DNA from: Escherichia coli
GTDB taxonomy: Bacteria > Pseudomonadota > Gammaproteobacteria > Enterobacterales > Enterobacteriaceae
Assembly (NCBI RefSeq): GCF_003334405.1
Contig: NZ_QOWM01000008.1
Length of the DNA: 64,000 nt
Reading direction: 5' to 3' (one strand)
Position 1 is the first letter of the stretch; each line of letters begins with the position of its first letter. The notes under the pieces were generated by a model, which had not been told where the DNA came from, made no database searches, and saw nothing but the letters and a program-made list of their open reading frames with translations. Both the position numbers and the translations under genes were made by a program. Shown piece after piece: positions 1 to 19,410 of the stretch.

Positions 1-330
1 CGTGCGGGGGTTTTCTCTTTCCAGCAACCAATGCCACCAGGGATAAAGCCCCCGCAACATTGCGCCTCACCGGATAACGCCGGCTTGGTGTGGATACTAC
101 GACTCAATTCATCTTCACTTCATCCCTGAAATGTTTGCAATGAAGAGTGCATTCCGGTTTTTCAACAGCTGTTACAGTCATTTCATGAGTGCTCTGGATG
201 AGGCTTCCAGCTCGGGTTGCCAATATTTACTTGTGGAAGTGATAAAGACAAAAATGGCCGCAGGCTGTTACCCCTGCGGCCGGTTTCGGGCGCATATTGC
301 CATCACGGCAGCCTGACGCCCGTTTTCACC

Positions 331-438
331 TTACTTCCGGTTACGCCACCAGCTGACAATCGCTGCGGTAATAATTCCCGCCAGGATCGGTGCTGCCAGG
401 TCGTGCCAGAAAATCATGGCAAACTGCGCGAGCGTCAT
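331..438 (-). CDS. ldrB: Ldr-family small hydrophobic toxin, 35 aa (MTLAQFAMIFWHDLAAPILAGIITAAIVSWWRNRK)
   Basis: Hand translation of the reverse complement gives ATG...TAA, 35 codons, matching the Ldr toxin family; too short for the ORF track. Symbol assigned by position (second-to-last copy before chaA) and is tentative. Confidence 0.8.
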   Translation of the reverse strand: MTLAQFAMIFWHDLAAPILAGIITAAIVSWWRNRK

Positions 439-485
439 ATAGCCGCCTTGTTGTAATGACAACATTTTGCGGCTATTCTTGAAGT

Positions 486-552
486 GTCTGGTTTCAAGAT
501 TAGCCCCCGTTCTGTTGTCAGGTTTTACCTCTCAACGTGCGGGGGTTTTCTC
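486..552 (+). ncRNA. rdl: Rdl-like cis-antisense RNA (antitoxin) ending in an intrinsic terminator
   Basis: Plus-strand segment antisense to the ldr 5' leader, ending in CCCCCG...CGGGGG hairpin followed by TTTTCTCTTT; position agrees with known rdl placement about 50-120 bp beyond the ldr start. Boundaries approximate. An identical 3' end lies at 1-20. Confidence 0.5.
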
Positions 553-629
553 TTTCCAGCAACCAATGCCACCAGGGATAAAGCCCCCGCAACATTGCGC
601 CTCACCGGATAATTCCGGCTTGGTGTGGA

Positions 630-638
630 TACTACGTC
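630..638. repeat. IS10 target-site duplication, left copy (TACTACGTC)
   Basis: 9-bp direct repeat immediately flanking the IS10 outside end; identical 9-mer at 1968-1976. Confidence 0.9.
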
Positions 639-1967
639 CTGATGAATCCCCTAATGATTTTTATCAAAATCATTAAGTTAAGGTAGATACACATCTTGTC
701 ATATGATCAAATGGTTTCGCCAAAAATCAATAATCAGACAACAAAATGTGCGAACTCGATATTTTACACGACTCTCTTTACCAATTCTGCCCCGAATTAC
801 ACTTAAAACGACTCAACAGCTTAACGTTGGCTTGCCACGCCTTACTTGACTGTAAAACTCTCACTCTTACCGAACTTGGCCGTAACCTGCCAACCAAAGC
901 GAGAACAAAACATAACATCAAACGAATCGACCGATTGTTAGGTAATCGTCACCTCCACAAAGAGCGACTCGCTGTATACCGTTGGCATGCTAGCTTTATC
1001 TGTTCGGGCAATACGATGCCCATTGTACTTGTTGACTGGTCTGATATCCGTGAGCAAAAACGGCTTATGGTATTGCGAGCTTCAGTCGCACTACACGGTC
1101 GTTCTGTTACTCTTTATGAGAAAGCGTTCCCGCTTTCAGAGCAATGTTCAAAGAAAGCTCATGACCAATTTCTAGCCGACCTTGCGAGCATTCTACCGAG
1201 TAACACCACACCGCTCATTGTCAGTGATGCTGGCTTTAAAGTGCCATGGTATAAATCCGTTGAGAAGCTGGGTTGGTACTGGTTAAGTCGAGTAAGAGGA
1301 AAAGTACAATATGCAGACCTAGGAGCGGAAAACTGGAAACCTATCAGCAACTTACATGATATGTCATCTAGTCACTCAAAGACTTTAGGCTATAAGAGGC
1401 TGACTAAAAGCAATCCAATCTCATGCCAAATTCTATTGTATAAATCTCGCTCTAAAGGCCGAAAAAATCAGCGCTCGACACGGACTCATTGTCACCACCC
1501 GTCACCTAAAATCTACTCAGCGTCGGCAAAGGAGCCATGGATTCTAGCAACTAACTTACCTGTTGAAATTCGAACACCCAAACAACTTGTTAATATCTAT
1601 TCGAAGCGAATGCAGATTGAAGAAACCTTCCGAGACTTGAAAAGTCCTGCCTACGGACTAGGCCTACGCCATAGCCGAACGAGCAGCTCAGAGCGTTTTG
1701 ATATCATGCTGCTAATCGCCCTGATGCTTCAACTAACATGTTGGCTTGCGGGCGTTCATGCTCAGAAACAAGGTTGGGACAAGCACTTCCAGGCTAACAC
1801 AGTCAGAAATCGAAACGTACTCTCAACAGTTCGCTTAGGCATGGAAGTTTTGCGGCATTCTGGCTACACAATAACAAGGGAAGACTCACTCGTGGCTGCA
1901 ACCCTGCTTACTCAAAATCTATTCACACATGGTTACGTTTTGGGGAAATTATGAGGGGATCTCTCAG
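639..1967 (+). mobile_element. IS10: IS10 insertion sequence, complete, 1329 bp
   Basis: Outside end CTGATGAATCCCCTAATGATTTT at 639; inside end ...GAAATTATGAGGGGATCTCTCAG at 1945-1967; imperfect terminal inverted repeats; single 402-aa transposase ORF; 9-bp TSD. GATC sites at about 705 and 1957. Confidence 0.95.
746..1954 (+). CDS. IS10 transposase (IS4 family), 402 aa
   Basis: ORF track 746..1954; protein begins MCELDILHDSLYQFCPELHLKRL, matching the Tn10/IS10 transposase; start is 108 bp from the outside end as expected. Confidence 0.95.
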   Translation: MCELDILHDSLYQFCPELHLKRLNSLTLACHALLDCKTLTLTELGRNLPTKARTKHNIKRIDRLLGNRHLHKERLAVYRWHASFICSGNTMPIVLVDWSDIREQKRLMVLRASVALHGRSVTLYEKAFPLSEQCSKKAHDQFLADLASILPSNTTPLIVSDAGFKVPWYKSVEKLGWYWLSRVRGKVQYADLGAENWKPISNLHDMSSSHSKTLGYKRLTKSNPISCQILLYKSRSKGRKNQRSTRTHCHHPSPKIYSASAKEPWILATNLPVEIRTPKQLVNIYSKRMQIEETFRDLKSPAYGLGLRHSRTSSSERFDIMLLIALMLQLTCWLAGVHAQKQGWDKHFQANTVRNRNVLSTVRLGMEVLRHSGYTITREDSLVAATLLTQNLFTHGYVLGKL

Positions 1968-1976
1968 TACTACGTC
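1968..1976. repeat. IS10 target-site duplication, right copy (TACTACGTC)
   Basis: Identical 9-mer to 630-638, directly after the IS10 inside end. Confidence 0.9.
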
Positions 1977-2203
1977 TCAATTCATCTTCACTTCATCCCT
2001 GAAATGTTTGCAATAAAGAGTACATTCCGGCTTTTCAACAGCTGTTGCAGTCGTTTCATGAGTGCTCTGGATGATGCTTCCAGCTCGGGTTGCCAATATT
2101 TACTTGTGGAAGAGATAAAGACAAAAATGGCCGCAGGCTGTTACCCCTGCGGCCGGTTTCGGGCGCATATTGCCATCACGGCAGCCTGACGCCCGTTTTC
2201 ACC

Positions 2204-2311
2204 TTACTTCCGGTTACGCCACCAGCTGACAATCGCTGCGGTAATAATTCCCGCCAGGATCGGTGCTGCCAGGTCGTGCCAGAAAATCATGGCAAACTGC
2301 GCGAGCGTCAT
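2204..2311 (-). CDS. ldrC: Ldr-family small hydrophobic toxin, 35 aa, identical to the copy at 331..438
   Basis: Same 108-nt sequence as 331..438; last LDR copy before chaA. Symbol by position, tentative. Confidence 0.8.
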   Translation of the reverse strand: MTLAQFAMIFWHDLAAPILAGIITAAIVSWWRNRK

Positions 2312-2358
2312 ATAGCCGCCTTGTTGTAATGACAACATTTTGCGGCTATTCTTGAAGT

Positions 2359-2425
2359 GTCTGGTTTCAAGATTAGCCCCCGTTTTGTTGTCAGGTTTTA
2401 CCTCTCAACGTGCGGGGGTTTTCTC
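2359..2425 (+). ncRNA. rdl: Rdl-like cis-antisense RNA (antitoxin)
   Basis: Same sequence as 486-552 with one T/C difference; hairpin plus U-tract terminator. Boundaries approximate. Confidence 0.5.
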
Positions 2426-2714
2426 TTTCCAGCAACCAATGCCACCAGGGATAAAGCCCCGCAACATTGCGCCTCACCGGATAACGCCGGCTTGGTGTGG
2501 ATACTACGTCGCAATTCATCTTCACTTCATCCCTGAAATGTTTGCAATGAAGAGTACATTCCGGCTTTTCAACAGCTGTTGCAGTGGTTTCGTGCAGGGT
2601 GTGGTACAGGCTCGCAATTCTGATTAACGACCTGTCCAGGTAGTATGAAGAAATACAATAAGCAGGAATTTATATTATCTCCCCCGATTACCGTCATCGG
2701 AGGAGATATAACTG

Positions 2715-3815
2715 TCAGGCAAATATCGTCATCAAATAGGCGGCAAACAGTGCCAGATGCGCTGCGCCATTGAGCACGTTAGTACGTCCGGTGGAGAAGG
2801 AGATATGGCACAGCACTAAAGAGGCCACCATCACCACCATTTCTGGCGCACCAAGTGCAAACTGCAATTCGTTACCCGTCATAAAGGCAATTAGCGTGAC
2901 GACAGGTACGGTAAGCGAAATGGTTGCTAACACTGAACCAAAGAACAGATTCATCGCGCGCTGAACCTGGTTGTTCAACACTGCTTTTAATGCACCTAAA
3001 CCTTCCGGCGACAGAATCAACAGTGCCACCAGGAAGCCAGTAAAGGCGACAGGGGCATTCATGCTGTCGAGCAATGTCTCCAGCGAGCTGGCGTTCATTT
3101 TGGTCACCGCAATAACGGCAATCAGATGGATAATCAACCAGATAGCATGCCACAGGCTGCTATGGGCAGACGGTTTACCGTGATGCGGGTCGTCATCATC
3201 ACTGTCATCTTCGTGCTCGTAGACAAACAAACTTTGATGCGTTTTGGTCTGGATCAGCAAAAATACGCCATACATTGCCGCAGAAATTAATGCTACCAGT
3301 AACGCCTGACCGGTTGAAAAATTCGCCGCAGGCAGAGCCATTGGAAATACCAGTACGATTATCGCCAGGGGGAACAGCGCAATTAAATACTGCTTGATAC
3401 CAAACAGATTCATATATTGGGTGGCAAACTTACGACCGCCCAACAATAATGAAAAGCCAACCAGCCCACCGGTAACAATCATAATGATTGAATAGAGCGT
3501 ATCACGCATTAGCGTTGGCGCGGCGTCGCCGGTTGCCATTAAAGCTGAAATCAAACTGACTTCAAGAATAACCACTGAAAGGCTAAGAATAAGCGAACCG
3601 TAAGGTTCTCCCAGGCGATGGGCTAATACGTCCGCATGACGGACAACACTAAAGGCGCTACTTAAAATACCAATAAGCGCAAGAAGATTGATGGCAATGA
3701 CCACTGGTAGTGTCTGGCTGCTTCCCCACAGGAACAGCACTACCAGCGCCAGAACCGGGAAAATAAGCGAAGTCTCCTTGTGGCGGGTTTTTACCGCCTC
3801 TTGAGCATTTGACAT
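2715..3815 (-). CDS. chaA: Ca2+/H+ (Na+/H+) antiporter ChaA, 366 aa
   Basis: ORF track 2715..3902; start trimmed to internal ATG (MSNAQEAVKTRH...) to match known ChaA length; multi-pass membrane protein with acidic loop. Confidence 0.9.
   Translation of the reverse strand: MSNAQEAVKTRHKETSLIFPVLALVVLFLWGSSQTLPVVIAINLLALIGILSSAFSVVRHADVLAHRLGEPYGSLILSLSVVILEVSLISALMATGDAAPTLMRDTLYSIIMIVTGGLVGFSLLLGGRKFATQYMNLFGIKQYLIALFPLAIIVLVFPMALPAANFSTGQALLVALISAAMYGVFLLIQTKTHQSLFVYEHEDDSDDDDPHHGKPSAHSSLWHAIWLIIHLIAVIAVTKMNASSLETLLDSMNAPVAFTGFLVALLILSPEGLGALKAVLNNQVQRAMNLFFGSVLATISLTVPVVTLIAFMTGNELQFALGAPEMVVMVASLVLCHISFSTGRTNVLNGAAHLALFAAYLMTIFA

Positions 3816-18674: not shown

Positions 18675-19410
<736 letters not shown>

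What the first reader, a model, noticed from the sequence alone, without database searches (positions are those of the whole stretch)
630..1976. Intact IS10 inserted inside the ldr/rdl type I toxin-antitoxin repeat array
A complete 1329-bp IS10 with an uninterrupted 402-aa transposase sits between two otherwise consecutive LDR units and is flanked by a perfect 9-bp direct repeat (TACTACGTC), the signature of a simple IS10 transposition. The two ldr ORFs are 1873 bp apart, which is exactly the usual 535-bp unit plus 1329 plus 9. I do not recall an IS10 at this position in the reference K-12 chromosome, so this looks strain-specific and possibly recent. Insertions into toxin-antitoxin loci can change toxin expression.
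Basis: partly seen in the sequence, partly recalled or inferred. Interest (0 to 1): 0.6.

Follow-up and report, generated by a model that had tools for sequence, protein, structure and literature searches.

The report
IS10 insertion in ldrB toxin promoter
A complete, apparently active IS10 (ISVsa5 isoform) has recently jumped into the promoter of one small toxin gene (ldrB) in the ldr/rdl toxin-antitoxin repeat array of a wild-type, K-12-like E. coli; this is an ordinary transposition event, notable only because the same 22-bp stretch has been hit independently in two other sequenced strains.

Summary
A 1329-bp IS10 lies at 639-1967, flanked by a perfect 9-bp duplication TACTACGTC (630-638 and 1968-1976). 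It has an intact 402-aa DDE transposase, both terminal repeats and RNA-OUT. Removing the IS and one duplicate restores gapless colinearity with MG1655 and with the closest relatives (FDN-9, EC23), which all have the empty site. It is therefore a simple, recent, strain-specific insertion.

The host is not K-12 but a close wild relative.

The insertion is not in neutral spacer. Comparison of 15 LDR units from at least six species shows an invariant TAGWAT box followed by a conserved 5' hairpin, which I read as the ldr -10 and transcript start. The target duplication overlaps this box, so the -35 is now 1338 bp away. rdlB, ldrC and rdlC are untouched, and IS10's outward promoter pOUT faces ldrB.

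The predicted result is loss of native ldrB transcription, possibly replaced by weak pOUT read-through still controlled by RdlB. This is inferred, not measured.

Among 5,426 complete genomes, two others carry independent IS10 insertions within the same 22 bp, in the same orientation. That suggests a minor target hot spot or tolerated site. Interest is low.

The parts
630..638 (.). Left copy of the 9-bp target-site duplication TACTACGTC
   Evidence: Exact match to 1968-1976. A single copy is present at the empty site in MG1655, FDN-9 and EC23. It fits the relaxed IS10 target consensus NRCNNNGYN quoted in PMC4574204.
639..1967 (+). IS10 (IS10R isoform 'ISVsa5'), 1329 bp, complete
   Evidence: Both termini and the length were verified. 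It is 100% identical to many copies in other E. coli genomes. It differs by 6 nt (IS nt 1249-1300) from a lab Tn10-derived IS10R copy in ET12567. PGAP names the identical protein 'IS4-like element ISVsa5 family transposase'. ISVsa5 = IS10R per PMC10885879 and PMC11064736.
639..661 (+). IS10 outside end (terminal inverted repeat), adjacent to the ldrB side
   Evidence: CTGATGAATCCCCTAATGATTTT read directly.
684..753 (-). RNA-OUT antisense RNA made from pOUT; transcription runs leftward, out of the IS toward ldrB
   Evidence: Rfam RF00240, 97.3 bits against a gathering score of 41, full length 1-70. Its 5' end at 753 is IS nt 115.
746..1954 (+). IS10 transposase ORF, 402 aa, uninterrupted
   Evidence: ORF list. 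NCBIfam NF033591 IS4-family transposase, 402 bits against a cutoff of 152. D97, D161 and E292 are present.
1945..1967 (-). IS10 inside end (terminal inverted repeat, contains a GATC dam site)
   Evidence: The reverse complement reads CTGAGAGATCCCCTCATAATTTC.
1968..1976 (.). Right copy of the target-site duplication TACTACGTC
331..438 (-). ldrB toxin ORF (35 aa), now carrying the ldrA/C allele
   Evidence: ORF. It maps to MG1655 ldrB through the gapless alignment. Allele conversion at 354/394/413.
486..551 (+). rdlB antitoxin sRNA gene, intact
   Evidence: Rfam RF01813, 91.4 bits against a gathering score of 50, full length.
629..634 (-). Inferred ldrB promoter -10 hexamer TAGTAT; 5 of its 6 bases lie in the left target duplication, so it stays next to ldrB
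   Evidence: TAG(A/T)AT is invariant in 15 LDR units from at least six species, with conservation collapsing upstream and near-complete downstream. LDR-D/LDR-ABC homology starts here. It is the best sigma-70-like match in the region. No experimental TSS was found.
1991..1996 (-). Inferred ldrB promoter -35 (ATGAAG), displaced 1338 bp from its -10 by the IS
   Evidence: 18-nt spacing to TAGTAT in the emptied sequence. An RTGAAG/GTGCTG motif with a conserved TG sits at the same distance in other LDR units.
603..619 (-). Conserved 5' hairpin GCCGGAAUUAUCCGGUG of the ldrB mRNA, just downstream of the inferred start (~621-626)
   Evidence: 98.7% of cells paired in 13 sequences, with an A-U to G-C compensatory change in 3. 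It forms in predicted folds.
256..281 (-). ldrB intrinsic terminator
   Evidence: Terminator scan: 9-bp stem with 8 G-C pairs plus a T-run.
2204..2311 (-). ldrC toxin ORF, unaffected
2359..2424 (+). rdlC antitoxin sRNA gene, intact
   Evidence: Rfam RF01813, 91.8 bits.
2129..2154 (-). ldrC terminator; lies about 150 bp to the right of the IS, so the ldrC transcript is not interrupted

Best explanation
A single, complete and probably still active IS10 (ISVsa5/IS10R isoform) transposed by the normal cut-and-paste route into the chromosome of a wild, K-12-like E. coli and duplicated the 9-bp target TACTACGTC. The target lies in the promoter of ldrB, the middle toxin gene of the ldrA-ldrB-ldrC array. 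On the ldr strand the duplicated GACGTAGTA covers the end of the spacer and five bases of the -10 box TAGTAT. As a result the -10 stays with ldrB while the weak -35 (ATGAAG) is pushed 1338 bp away, so the native ldrB promoter should be crippled. The antitoxin gene rdlB, and all of ldrC/rdlC, are untouched. The IS is oriented with its outside end toward ldrB, so its outward promoter pOUT reads in the ldrB sense direction. Any ldrB RNA now made is most likely pOUT read-through carrying a ~130-nt IS leader, still pairing with RdlB. The net effect is a silenced or weakly, RdlB-controlled toxin copy, which is tolerated. Shown: the identity, intactness, junctions, recency and position relative to conserved elements. 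Inferred: the promoter assignment, the loss of native transcription, pOUT read-through and the neutral outcome.
For: Identity and intactness: termini, length and duplication; ORF; RNA-OUT at 97 bits; IS4-family transposase model at 402 bits; DDE residues, and only 6 nt different from a lab IS10R.

Simple recent insertion: the emptied window is gaplessly colinear with MG1655, FDN-9 and EC23. The closest genomes (4-5 SNPs per 26.5 kb) lack it. Only 1 of 5,426 complete genomes shares the junction sequence.

Promoter placement: LDR-D homology begins at CGTAG(T/A)AT. TAGWAT is invariant in 15 units from at least six species, with a conserved hairpin immediately downstream. A start near 622 and the terminator at 281-256 give a ~375-nt RNA, in line with the ~370-nt ldrD mRNA of Kawano 2002; that length is recalled from the abstract and was not retrievable here. 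The reviews read here confirm a long 5' UTR with rdl antisense to it.

Antitoxins intact: Rfam rdlD hits at 486-551 and 2359-2424.

pOUT read-through: there is no minus-strand terminator between 753 and ldrB. [quoted passage not shown] Folding predicts that the IS leader folds on its own and leaves the 5' hairpin, Rdl target, SD and AUG accessibility unchanged.
Against: I found no experimental transcription start for any ldr gene in the papers I could read, so the -10/-35 assignment rests on conservation and geometry. The consensus promoter scanner found no sigma-70 site at its threshold anywhere in 1-2720. The proposed promoter is weak (3/6 and 4/6 hexamer matches, 18-nt spacer). No expression data exist for this strain, so ldrB could be up, down or unchanged. 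pOUT read-through into ldrB is an extrapolation from other loci. Read data were not available to rule out misassembly in this repeat-rich region.
Confidence: 0.8

Rival explanations
1. The insertion activates rather than silences ldrB. The strong outward promoter pOUT, or a hybrid promoter using the retained TAGTAT -10, drives more ldrB mRNA than the weak native promoter, raising toxin potential. The strain survives because RdlB, and the near-identical RdlA and RdlC acting in trans, titrate it.
For: pOUT faces ldrB with no intervening terminator. IS10 pOUT is documented to turn on adjacent genes (PMC9330008; acrEF and cat examples). The native promoter looks weak. All three independent insertions have pOUT toward the ldr gene.
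Against: Most pOUT transcripts end as the 69-70-nt RNA-OUT, and read-through is reported as only about 10% of PlacUV5. The hybrid -35 positions in the IS end match TTGACA at only 2 of 6 bases (sequence read output). Three of three same-orientation events is not significant (p=0.25). A toxin-activating insertion would be expected to be counter-selected.
Confidence: 0.2
2. The IS-LDR junction is an assembly artefact: an IS10 located elsewhere was wrongly joined into the LDR repeats, since both are multi-copy sequences.
For: Both IS10 and LDR are repeats that break short-read assemblies. No read data could be inspected. No other genome has exactly this architecture.
Against: A perfect 9-bp duplication of a sequence that is single-copy at the empty site sits exactly at both IS termini, and gapless restoration on removal is the signature of real transposition, not of a chimeric join. 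Two complete genomes show independent IS10 insertions with their own proper duplications within 13 bp or at the paralogous site.
Confidence: 0.03
3. The three IS10 copies in LDR arrays (window, 23CRST001, IAL7254) descend from one ancestral insertion that spread by homologous recombination and unequal crossing-over among LDR units, rather than from independent transpositions. Under this view there is no hot spot.
For: LDR units recombine: the window's ldrB ORF has been converted to the ldrA/C allele. The window and 23CRST001 share the same 9-bp duplication and orientation. The window and IAL7254 are closely related and have identical IS sequences.
Against: IAL7254 has a different duplication (GGCTTGGTG) 13 bp away, which recombination cannot create. 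23CRST001 minus its IS is 100% identical without gaps over 5,973 bp to AR_452, so no foreign flank was imported. Its IS sits upstream of the third ldr, not the second, its flank differs from the window by 0.9%, and its IS has 2 SNPs. The window's nearest relatives have empty sites.
Confidence: 0.07

Closest known systems
IS10-Right of Tn10 (ISfinder synonym ISVsa5), IS4 family
   Same: 1329 bp, the same outside and inside ends, 9-bp target duplication, 402-aa DDE transposase, RNA-OUT/pOUT and pIN region identical to a lab IS10R copy over IS nt 1-1248.
   Different: Six substitutions at IS nt 1249-1300 give S381, T389 and V398 in place of L, A and A. This is the widespread natural 'ISVsa5' isoform. 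It is present as a solo IS, not as part of Tn10: there is no second copy in 64 kb.
IS10 insertions between a promoter and its gene, e.g. upstream of cat in pSU8 vectors (PMC4574204) and acrEF activation in Salmonella (Olliver 2005, cited in PMC9330008)
   Same: A solo IS10 lands in a promoter or leader region at a non-canonical target fitting NRCNNNGYN, cutting off the native promoter, with IS-borne outward transcription available to replace it.
   Different: Those events were recovered under antibiotic selection and the expression change was measured. Here the target is a toxin gene, no selection is known, and no expression data exist.
ldr/rdl type I toxin-antitoxin long direct repeats of E. 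coli K-12 (Kawano et al. 2002)
   Same: The same three-unit array between kdsA and chaA, 35-aa Ldr peptides, rdl sRNAs 48-114 nt upstream of each ATG, and 535-bp unit spacing.
   Different: The ldrB unit is split in its promoter by IS10, and the ldrB ORF carries the ldrA/C allele.
Chromosomal hok/sok loci of E. coli K-12 inactivated by insertion sequences (Pedersen & Gerdes 1999; recalled from my own knowledge, not checked here)
   Same: Type I toxin loci on the chromosome that are interrupted by IS elements while the cell remains viable. This is a precedent for IS-mediated decay or silencing of such loci.
   Different: That case involves a different toxin family, different IS elements (IS150/IS186) and different positions, near the 3' end of the hok mRNA rather than in the promoter.

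Membership tests
IS10 / IS4 family insertion sequence | Imperfect terminal inverted repeats with IS10 outside-end and inside-end sequences | tested here: met
   CTGATGAATCCCCTAATGA at 639 and the reverse complement of CTGAGAGATCCCCTCATAA ending at 1967; 17 of 23 terminal bases match as inverted repeats.
IS10 / IS4 family insertion sequence | 9-bp direct target-site duplication | tested here: met
   TACTACGTC on both sides, and single-copy at the empty sites of MG1655, FDN-9 and EC23.
IS10 / IS4 family insertion sequence | Single long ORF encoding a DDE transposase of about 402 aa | tested here: met
   402-aa ORF; NF033591 at 402 bits against a cutoff of 152; D97, D161 and E292 present (the residue numbers come from my knowledge of Tn10 transposase).
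IS10 / IS4 family insertion sequence | Antisense RNA-OUT overlapping the transposase start | tested here: met
   RF00240, 97.3 bits, full length, at 684-753(-).
IS10 / IS4 family insertion sequence | Target matches the IS10 consensus | tested here: inconclusive
   Only 3 of 6 matches to the classical NGCTNAGCN. Full match to the relaxed NRCNNNGYN, which occurs about once per 64 positions and so is weakly informative.
IS10 / IS4 family insertion sequence | Transposition activity | not testable with these tools
   All cis and coding features are intact, but activity needs a mating-out or papillation assay.
Composite transposon Tn10 | Two inverted IS10 copies bracketing tet genes | tested here: not met
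   Only one outside end and one inside end occur in the 64-kb window. Chromosomal LDR sequence abuts both ends.
ldr/rdl type I toxin-antitoxin (LDR) unit | 35-aa hydrophobic Ldr peptide ORF | tested here: met
   MTLAQFAMIFWHDLAAPILAGIITAAIVSWWRNRK at 331-438 and 2204-2311. The same positions as ldrB and ldrC of MG1655.
ldr/rdl type I toxin-antitoxin (LDR) unit | cis-encoded Rdl antisense sRNA opposite the ldr 5' UTR | tested here: met
   RF01813 hits at 91.4 and 91.8 bits, at 486-551 and 2359-2424.
ldr/rdl type I toxin-antitoxin (LDR) unit | Contiguous promoter-5'UTR-ORF-terminator transcription unit (~370 nt) | tested here: not met
   For ldrB the inferred -35 is separated from the -10, UTR and ORF by 1338 bp of IS plus duplication. 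ldrC is intact.
ldr/rdl type I toxin-antitoxin (LDR) unit | Toxicity of Ldr and repression by Rdl | not testable with these tools
   Known for LdrD and LdrA from the literature; not tested for this allele or strain.

The most novel reading that the evidence does not exclude
The -10/+1 region of ldr promoters is a genuine recurrent IS10 target, through DNA-structure preference or through selection. IS insertions that detach Ldr toxin genes from their promoters while sparing the Rdl antitoxins would then be a repeated, convergent route by which natural E. coli lineages silence, or re-wire to pOUT, individual copies of this type I toxin array. Support so far: three independent IS10 hits within 22 bp, all with pOUT facing ldr, plus an IS3-family element 8-12 nt upstream of ldrA in IAL7254.
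Probability: 0.3. Interest if true: 0.4.

Novelty: new member of a known kind. Interest (0 to 1): 0.22.

Why it matters
In practice it is a strain marker and a reminder that IS10/ISVsa5 is mobile in wild E. coli: it was found in 1,174 of 5,426 complete genomes.

Biologically, it offers a natural allele in which one toxin copy of a tandem type I toxin-antitoxin array is uncoupled from its promoter while its antitoxin is retained. That could be used to ask whether the individual ldr copies matter, and whether Rdl antitoxins act in trans across units.

The comparative analysis done here also gives a sequence-based placement of the ldr promoter and 5' hairpin. The three independent hits suggest a small IS10 hot spot. 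[quoted passage not shown]

Tried and rejected
(1) Experimental ldr transcription start. I searched reviews and primary papers and the supplements of Cappable-seq, SMRT-Cappable-seq and Conway 2014. No coordinate was found. Kawano 2002/2012, Fozo 2008 and Thomason 2015 are not held.

(2) More junctions in metagenomes. Two gapped-pattern scans covering either IS orientation within 30 bp of both flanks found nothing.

(3) Opposite-orientation IS10 at this site. A chimeric query found none. Its only full-coverage hit was a truncated IS10 rearrangement in XL10-Gold, not a simple insertion.

K-12 strains score below several wild isolates, and MG1655 differs from the window at two further positions (3989 and 4465) where FDN-9 and EC23 match it.

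(5) Same-clone explanation for the window and IAL7254 is rejected. IAL7254 has a different target duplication, an extra IS10 in tdk, a different RtT repeat number and about 11 SNPs in 30 kb.

(6) The consensus promoter scan gave no hits, so promoter placement had to come from comparative conservation.

(7) A weak Rfam 'sok' match on the ldr 5' UTR (29 bits against a gathering score of 59) was dismissed as below threshold.
Full report
OBSERVATION. An element of exactly 1329 bp (639-1967) begins with the IS10 outside end (CTGATGAATCCCCTAATGA...) and finishes with the inside end (...TTATGAGGGGATCTCTCAG). It is bracketed by two perfect copies of TACTACGTC at 630-638 and 1968-1976. It holds one uninterrupted 402-aa ORF at 746-1954. 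That ORF scores 402 bits against the NCBIfam IS4-family transposase model, whose cutoff is 152, and it keeps D97, D161 and E292. Rfam finds a full-length RNA-OUT at 684-753 on the minus strand (97 bits). The two ldr start codons are 1873 bp apart, which equals 535+1329+9. No second IS10 end exists in the 64-kb window, so this is a solo IS and not Tn10.

IS IT A REAL, SIMPLE, RECENT INSERTION? I removed the IS and one copy of the 9-mer. The result aligns without a single gap to MG1655 (5 mismatches in 3628 bp) and to the wild isolates FDN-9 and EC23 (3 mismatches in 4662 bp), all of which have the empty site. Window position 1 corresponds to MG1655 1,269,373, inside rdlA. The ldr at 331-438 is therefore ldrB and the one at 2204-2311 is ldrC, followed by chaA.

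The background is not K-12. Over 21 kb the best matches are FDN-9 (chicken, USA) and EC23 (human, Spain), with K-12 strains slightly lower. FDN-9 and EC23 differ from the window by only 4-5 SNPs in 26.5 kb, yet they lack the IS. Junction queries against 5,426 complete E. coli genomes found the left junction in only one other genome. The IS itself is 100% identical to many copies elsewhere, and IS10 at 80% coverage or more is present in 1,174 of 5,426 genomes. Compared with a Tn10-derived lab copy in ET12567, it differs at six positions, all between IS nt 1249 and 1300, giving three amino-acid changes. This is the natural isoform that PGAP and ISfinder call ISVsa5, treated in the literature as a synonym of IS10R (PMC10885879, PMC11064736).

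All of this supports a recent, strain-specific, ordinary cut-and-paste insertion of an intact element.

WHERE EXACTLY DID IT LAND? The LDR unit is not a gene plus neutral spacer. MG1655 annotation places each rdl 48-114 nt upstream of its ldr ATG. In the window, Rfam finds intact rdlB at 486-551 and rdlC at 2359-2424. The ldr terminators are at 281-256 and 2154-2129 on the minus strand.

I could not retrieve an experimentally mapped ldr start (see 'tried and rejected'), so I inferred it in three ways.

(i) The solitary LDR-D aligned to LDR-A, -B and -C shows homology on the ldr strand starting abruptly at CGTAG(T/A)ATC.

(ii) A 16-mer scan of one genome per species recovered LDR units in E. 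albertii, E. whittamii, Escherichia sp. E1V33, E. coli E69, Pseudocitrobacter faecalis and P. vendiensis, and Citrobacter sedlakii. In an alignment of 15 units the hexamer TAG(A/T)AT is invariant. Upstream of it almost nothing is conserved except a TG within RTGAAG/GTGCTG about 18 nt away. Downstream nearly everything is conserved, beginning with a GCCGGR....YCCGG hairpin. That hairpin is 98.7% paired and shows an A-U to G-C compensatory change in three sequences.

(iii) A start about 7 nt after TAGTAT (window ~621-626), together with the terminator, predicts a ~375-nt RNA. This agrees with the ~370-nt ldrD mRNA that I recall from the abstract of Kawano et al. 2002; that figure is my own memory and was not verified here. 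The reviews I could read confirm a long 5' UTR with rdl antisense to it.

On this reading the ldrB promoter is ATGAAG, then 18 nt, then TAGTAT. It is weak by consensus, and the generic scanner did not call it.

On the ldr strand the target duplication is GACGTAGTA, which covers the last four spacer bases plus TAGTA of the -10. After insertion the full -10 (634..629) remains beside ldrB, but the -35 now lies at 1996..1991, 1338 bp away. What replaces it, the IS10 outside end, matches TTGACA at only 2 of 6 positions at the right spacing. On the other side the -35 faces TAGTAC, a -10 that has lost its final T. The native promoter should therefore be largely inactive in both directions. That last point is inference.

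WHAT DOES ldrB SEE NOW? The IS is oriented with its outside end toward ldrB, so pOUT (RNA-OUT 5' end at 753) transcribes in the ldrB sense direction. No minus-strand terminator lies between 753 and the ldrB ORF. According to the literature, some pOUT transcripts extend into neighbouring genes at roughly 10% of PlacUV5, and IS10 has activated adjacent genes elsewhere (PMC9330008, PMC4574204). Thermodynamic folding of a hypothetical 506-nt pOUT-ldrB RNA predicts that the IS-derived leader folds on itself. The ldrB 5' hairpin, Rdl target, SD and AUG keep essentially the same accessibility as in the 377-nt native RNA.

My best reading is that ldrB has lost its own promoter and is either silent or weakly transcribed from pOUT, still under RdlB control. 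ldrC/rdlC and rdlB are unaffected, so the event is near-neutral. A rival reading, net activation of the toxin by pOUT buffered by the Rdl RNAs, cannot be excluded without RNA data.

RECURRENCE. Two other complete genomes have IS10 in the same short stretch, in the same orientation.

23CRST001 (human, Ecuador) has the identical 9-bp duplication, but in the terminal LDR unit, upstream of its third ldr. Removing its IS gives 100% gapless identity over 5,973 bp to AR_452. Its flank differs from the window by 0.9%, and its IS carries two synonymous SNPs.

IAL7254 (human, Brazil) is a close relative of the window strain with about 11 SNPs in 30 kb, an extra IS10 in tdk and a different RtT repeat number. 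Its identical IS lies 13 bp further left with its own duplication GGCTTGGTG (window-equivalent 617-625), which is at the inferred transcript start.

These are therefore three independent transpositions. Both targets fit the relaxed IS10 consensus NRCNNNGYN but fit the classical NGCTNAGCN poorly.

A rough estimate follows. The collection has at most 4,490 chromosomal IS10 places. About 88 bp of target (22 bp times four units or fewer) in about 4.9 Mb gives 0.08 or fewer expected hits, against 2 observed beyond the index case. The Poisson probability is about 0.003; this is my own arithmetic, and it is conservative because clonal copies inflate the 4,490. IS10 is known for strong site preferences, so a minor hot spot is unsurprising. 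Selection is an alternative: insertions that spare rdl and detach the toxin would be tolerated. Same orientation in three of three events is not significant. Metagenome scans for more junctions found none, and a query for the opposite orientation found no simple insertion.

COMPARISON WITH KNOWN SYSTEMS. The element passes every sequence-level test for IS10/IS10R (ISVsa5) and fails the test for Tn10. The host locus passes the tests for ldr/rdl, except that the ldrB unit is no longer a contiguous transcription unit. The situation resembles documented IS10 insertions between a promoter and its gene (cat in pSU8 vectors; acrEF). More loosely, it resembles the IS-interrupted chromosomal hok/sok loci of K-12, which I cite from my own knowledge. 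Nothing here departs from known IS10 or type I toxin-antitoxin biology.

VERDICT. The window is not K-12, the element is the ISVsa5 isoform, and the insertion lies in the ldrB promoter rather than in inert inter-unit DNA. It is a new insertion site of a well-known element, of low general interest (0.22). The most novel reading not excluded is a recurrent IS10 hot spot, or convergent IS-mediated uncoupling of Ldr toxins from their promoters (probability about 0.3, interest about 0.4 if true).

Noticed in passing
window 354, 394, 413 (inside ldrB ORF 331-438, minus strand): The only differences between the emptied window and FDN-9, EC23, IAL7254 and MG1655 in the LDR array are these three bases. 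At each one the window carries the ldrA/ldrC allele. This indicates a 60 to ~270-bp gene-conversion tract that turns LdrB into the LdrA/C peptide (T9I, G29S), 217-284 bp from the IS10. Any link to the transposition event is unknown.
   Followed up: partly
L002 (IAL7254, NZ_CM130001.1) ~966-2054: An ~1.09-kb IS3-family-like element (TG...CA ends, 5-bp duplication CCTTG, annotated as a partial 'integrase core domain' pseudogene) is inserted 8-12 nt upstream of the ldrA ATG. It separates the ldrA ORF from its 5' UTR, from rdlA (intact at 2095-2160) and from its promoter. Two of the three ldr ORFs in that strain are therefore detached from their upstream regions by IS elements.
   Followed up: partly
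L009 (XL10-Gold, NZ_CP081008.1) 3501-3637: In this K-12 lab strain a 137-bp IS10-like inside-end fragment (95.6% identical to the window IS) is fused on one side to npr and on the other to the middle of rdlC (window-equivalent 2406), next to chaA. This looks like an IS10/Tn10-promoted rearrangement endpoint inside LDR-C that removes ldrA-C from that position.
   Followed up: partly
L007 (IAL7254) 25886-27215: A second ISVsa5/IS10 copy interrupts tdk (thymidine kinase) in IAL7254. The window has intact tdk-region colinearity there.
   Followed up: no
window 18676-19410: The tyrT-tyrV region has three RtT repeats and two tRNA-Tyr genes. IAL7254 has four RtT units, so the repeat copy number varies between very close relatives.
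   Followed up: no
window 436-588 and 2309-2460, minus strand: There is a weak sub-threshold Rfam match of the ldr 5' UTR to the 'sok (CssrC)' model (29 and 27 bits against a gathering score of 59; E=5e-4 and 2e-3). It is probably not meaningful, though it lies on the toxin-mRNA strand of a system often compared with hok/sok.
   Followed up: no
window 603-634 minus strand and homologous positions in L006, L011, L016, L017, L030, L039, L040, L044, L055-L057: A by-product of this work is a comparative definition of the ldr promoter and 5' end: invariant TAGWAT, weak RTGAAG/GTGCTG about 18 nt upstream, and a conserved 5' hairpin with one covarying pair, across Escherichia, Pseudocitrobacter and Citrobacter.
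   Followed up: yes
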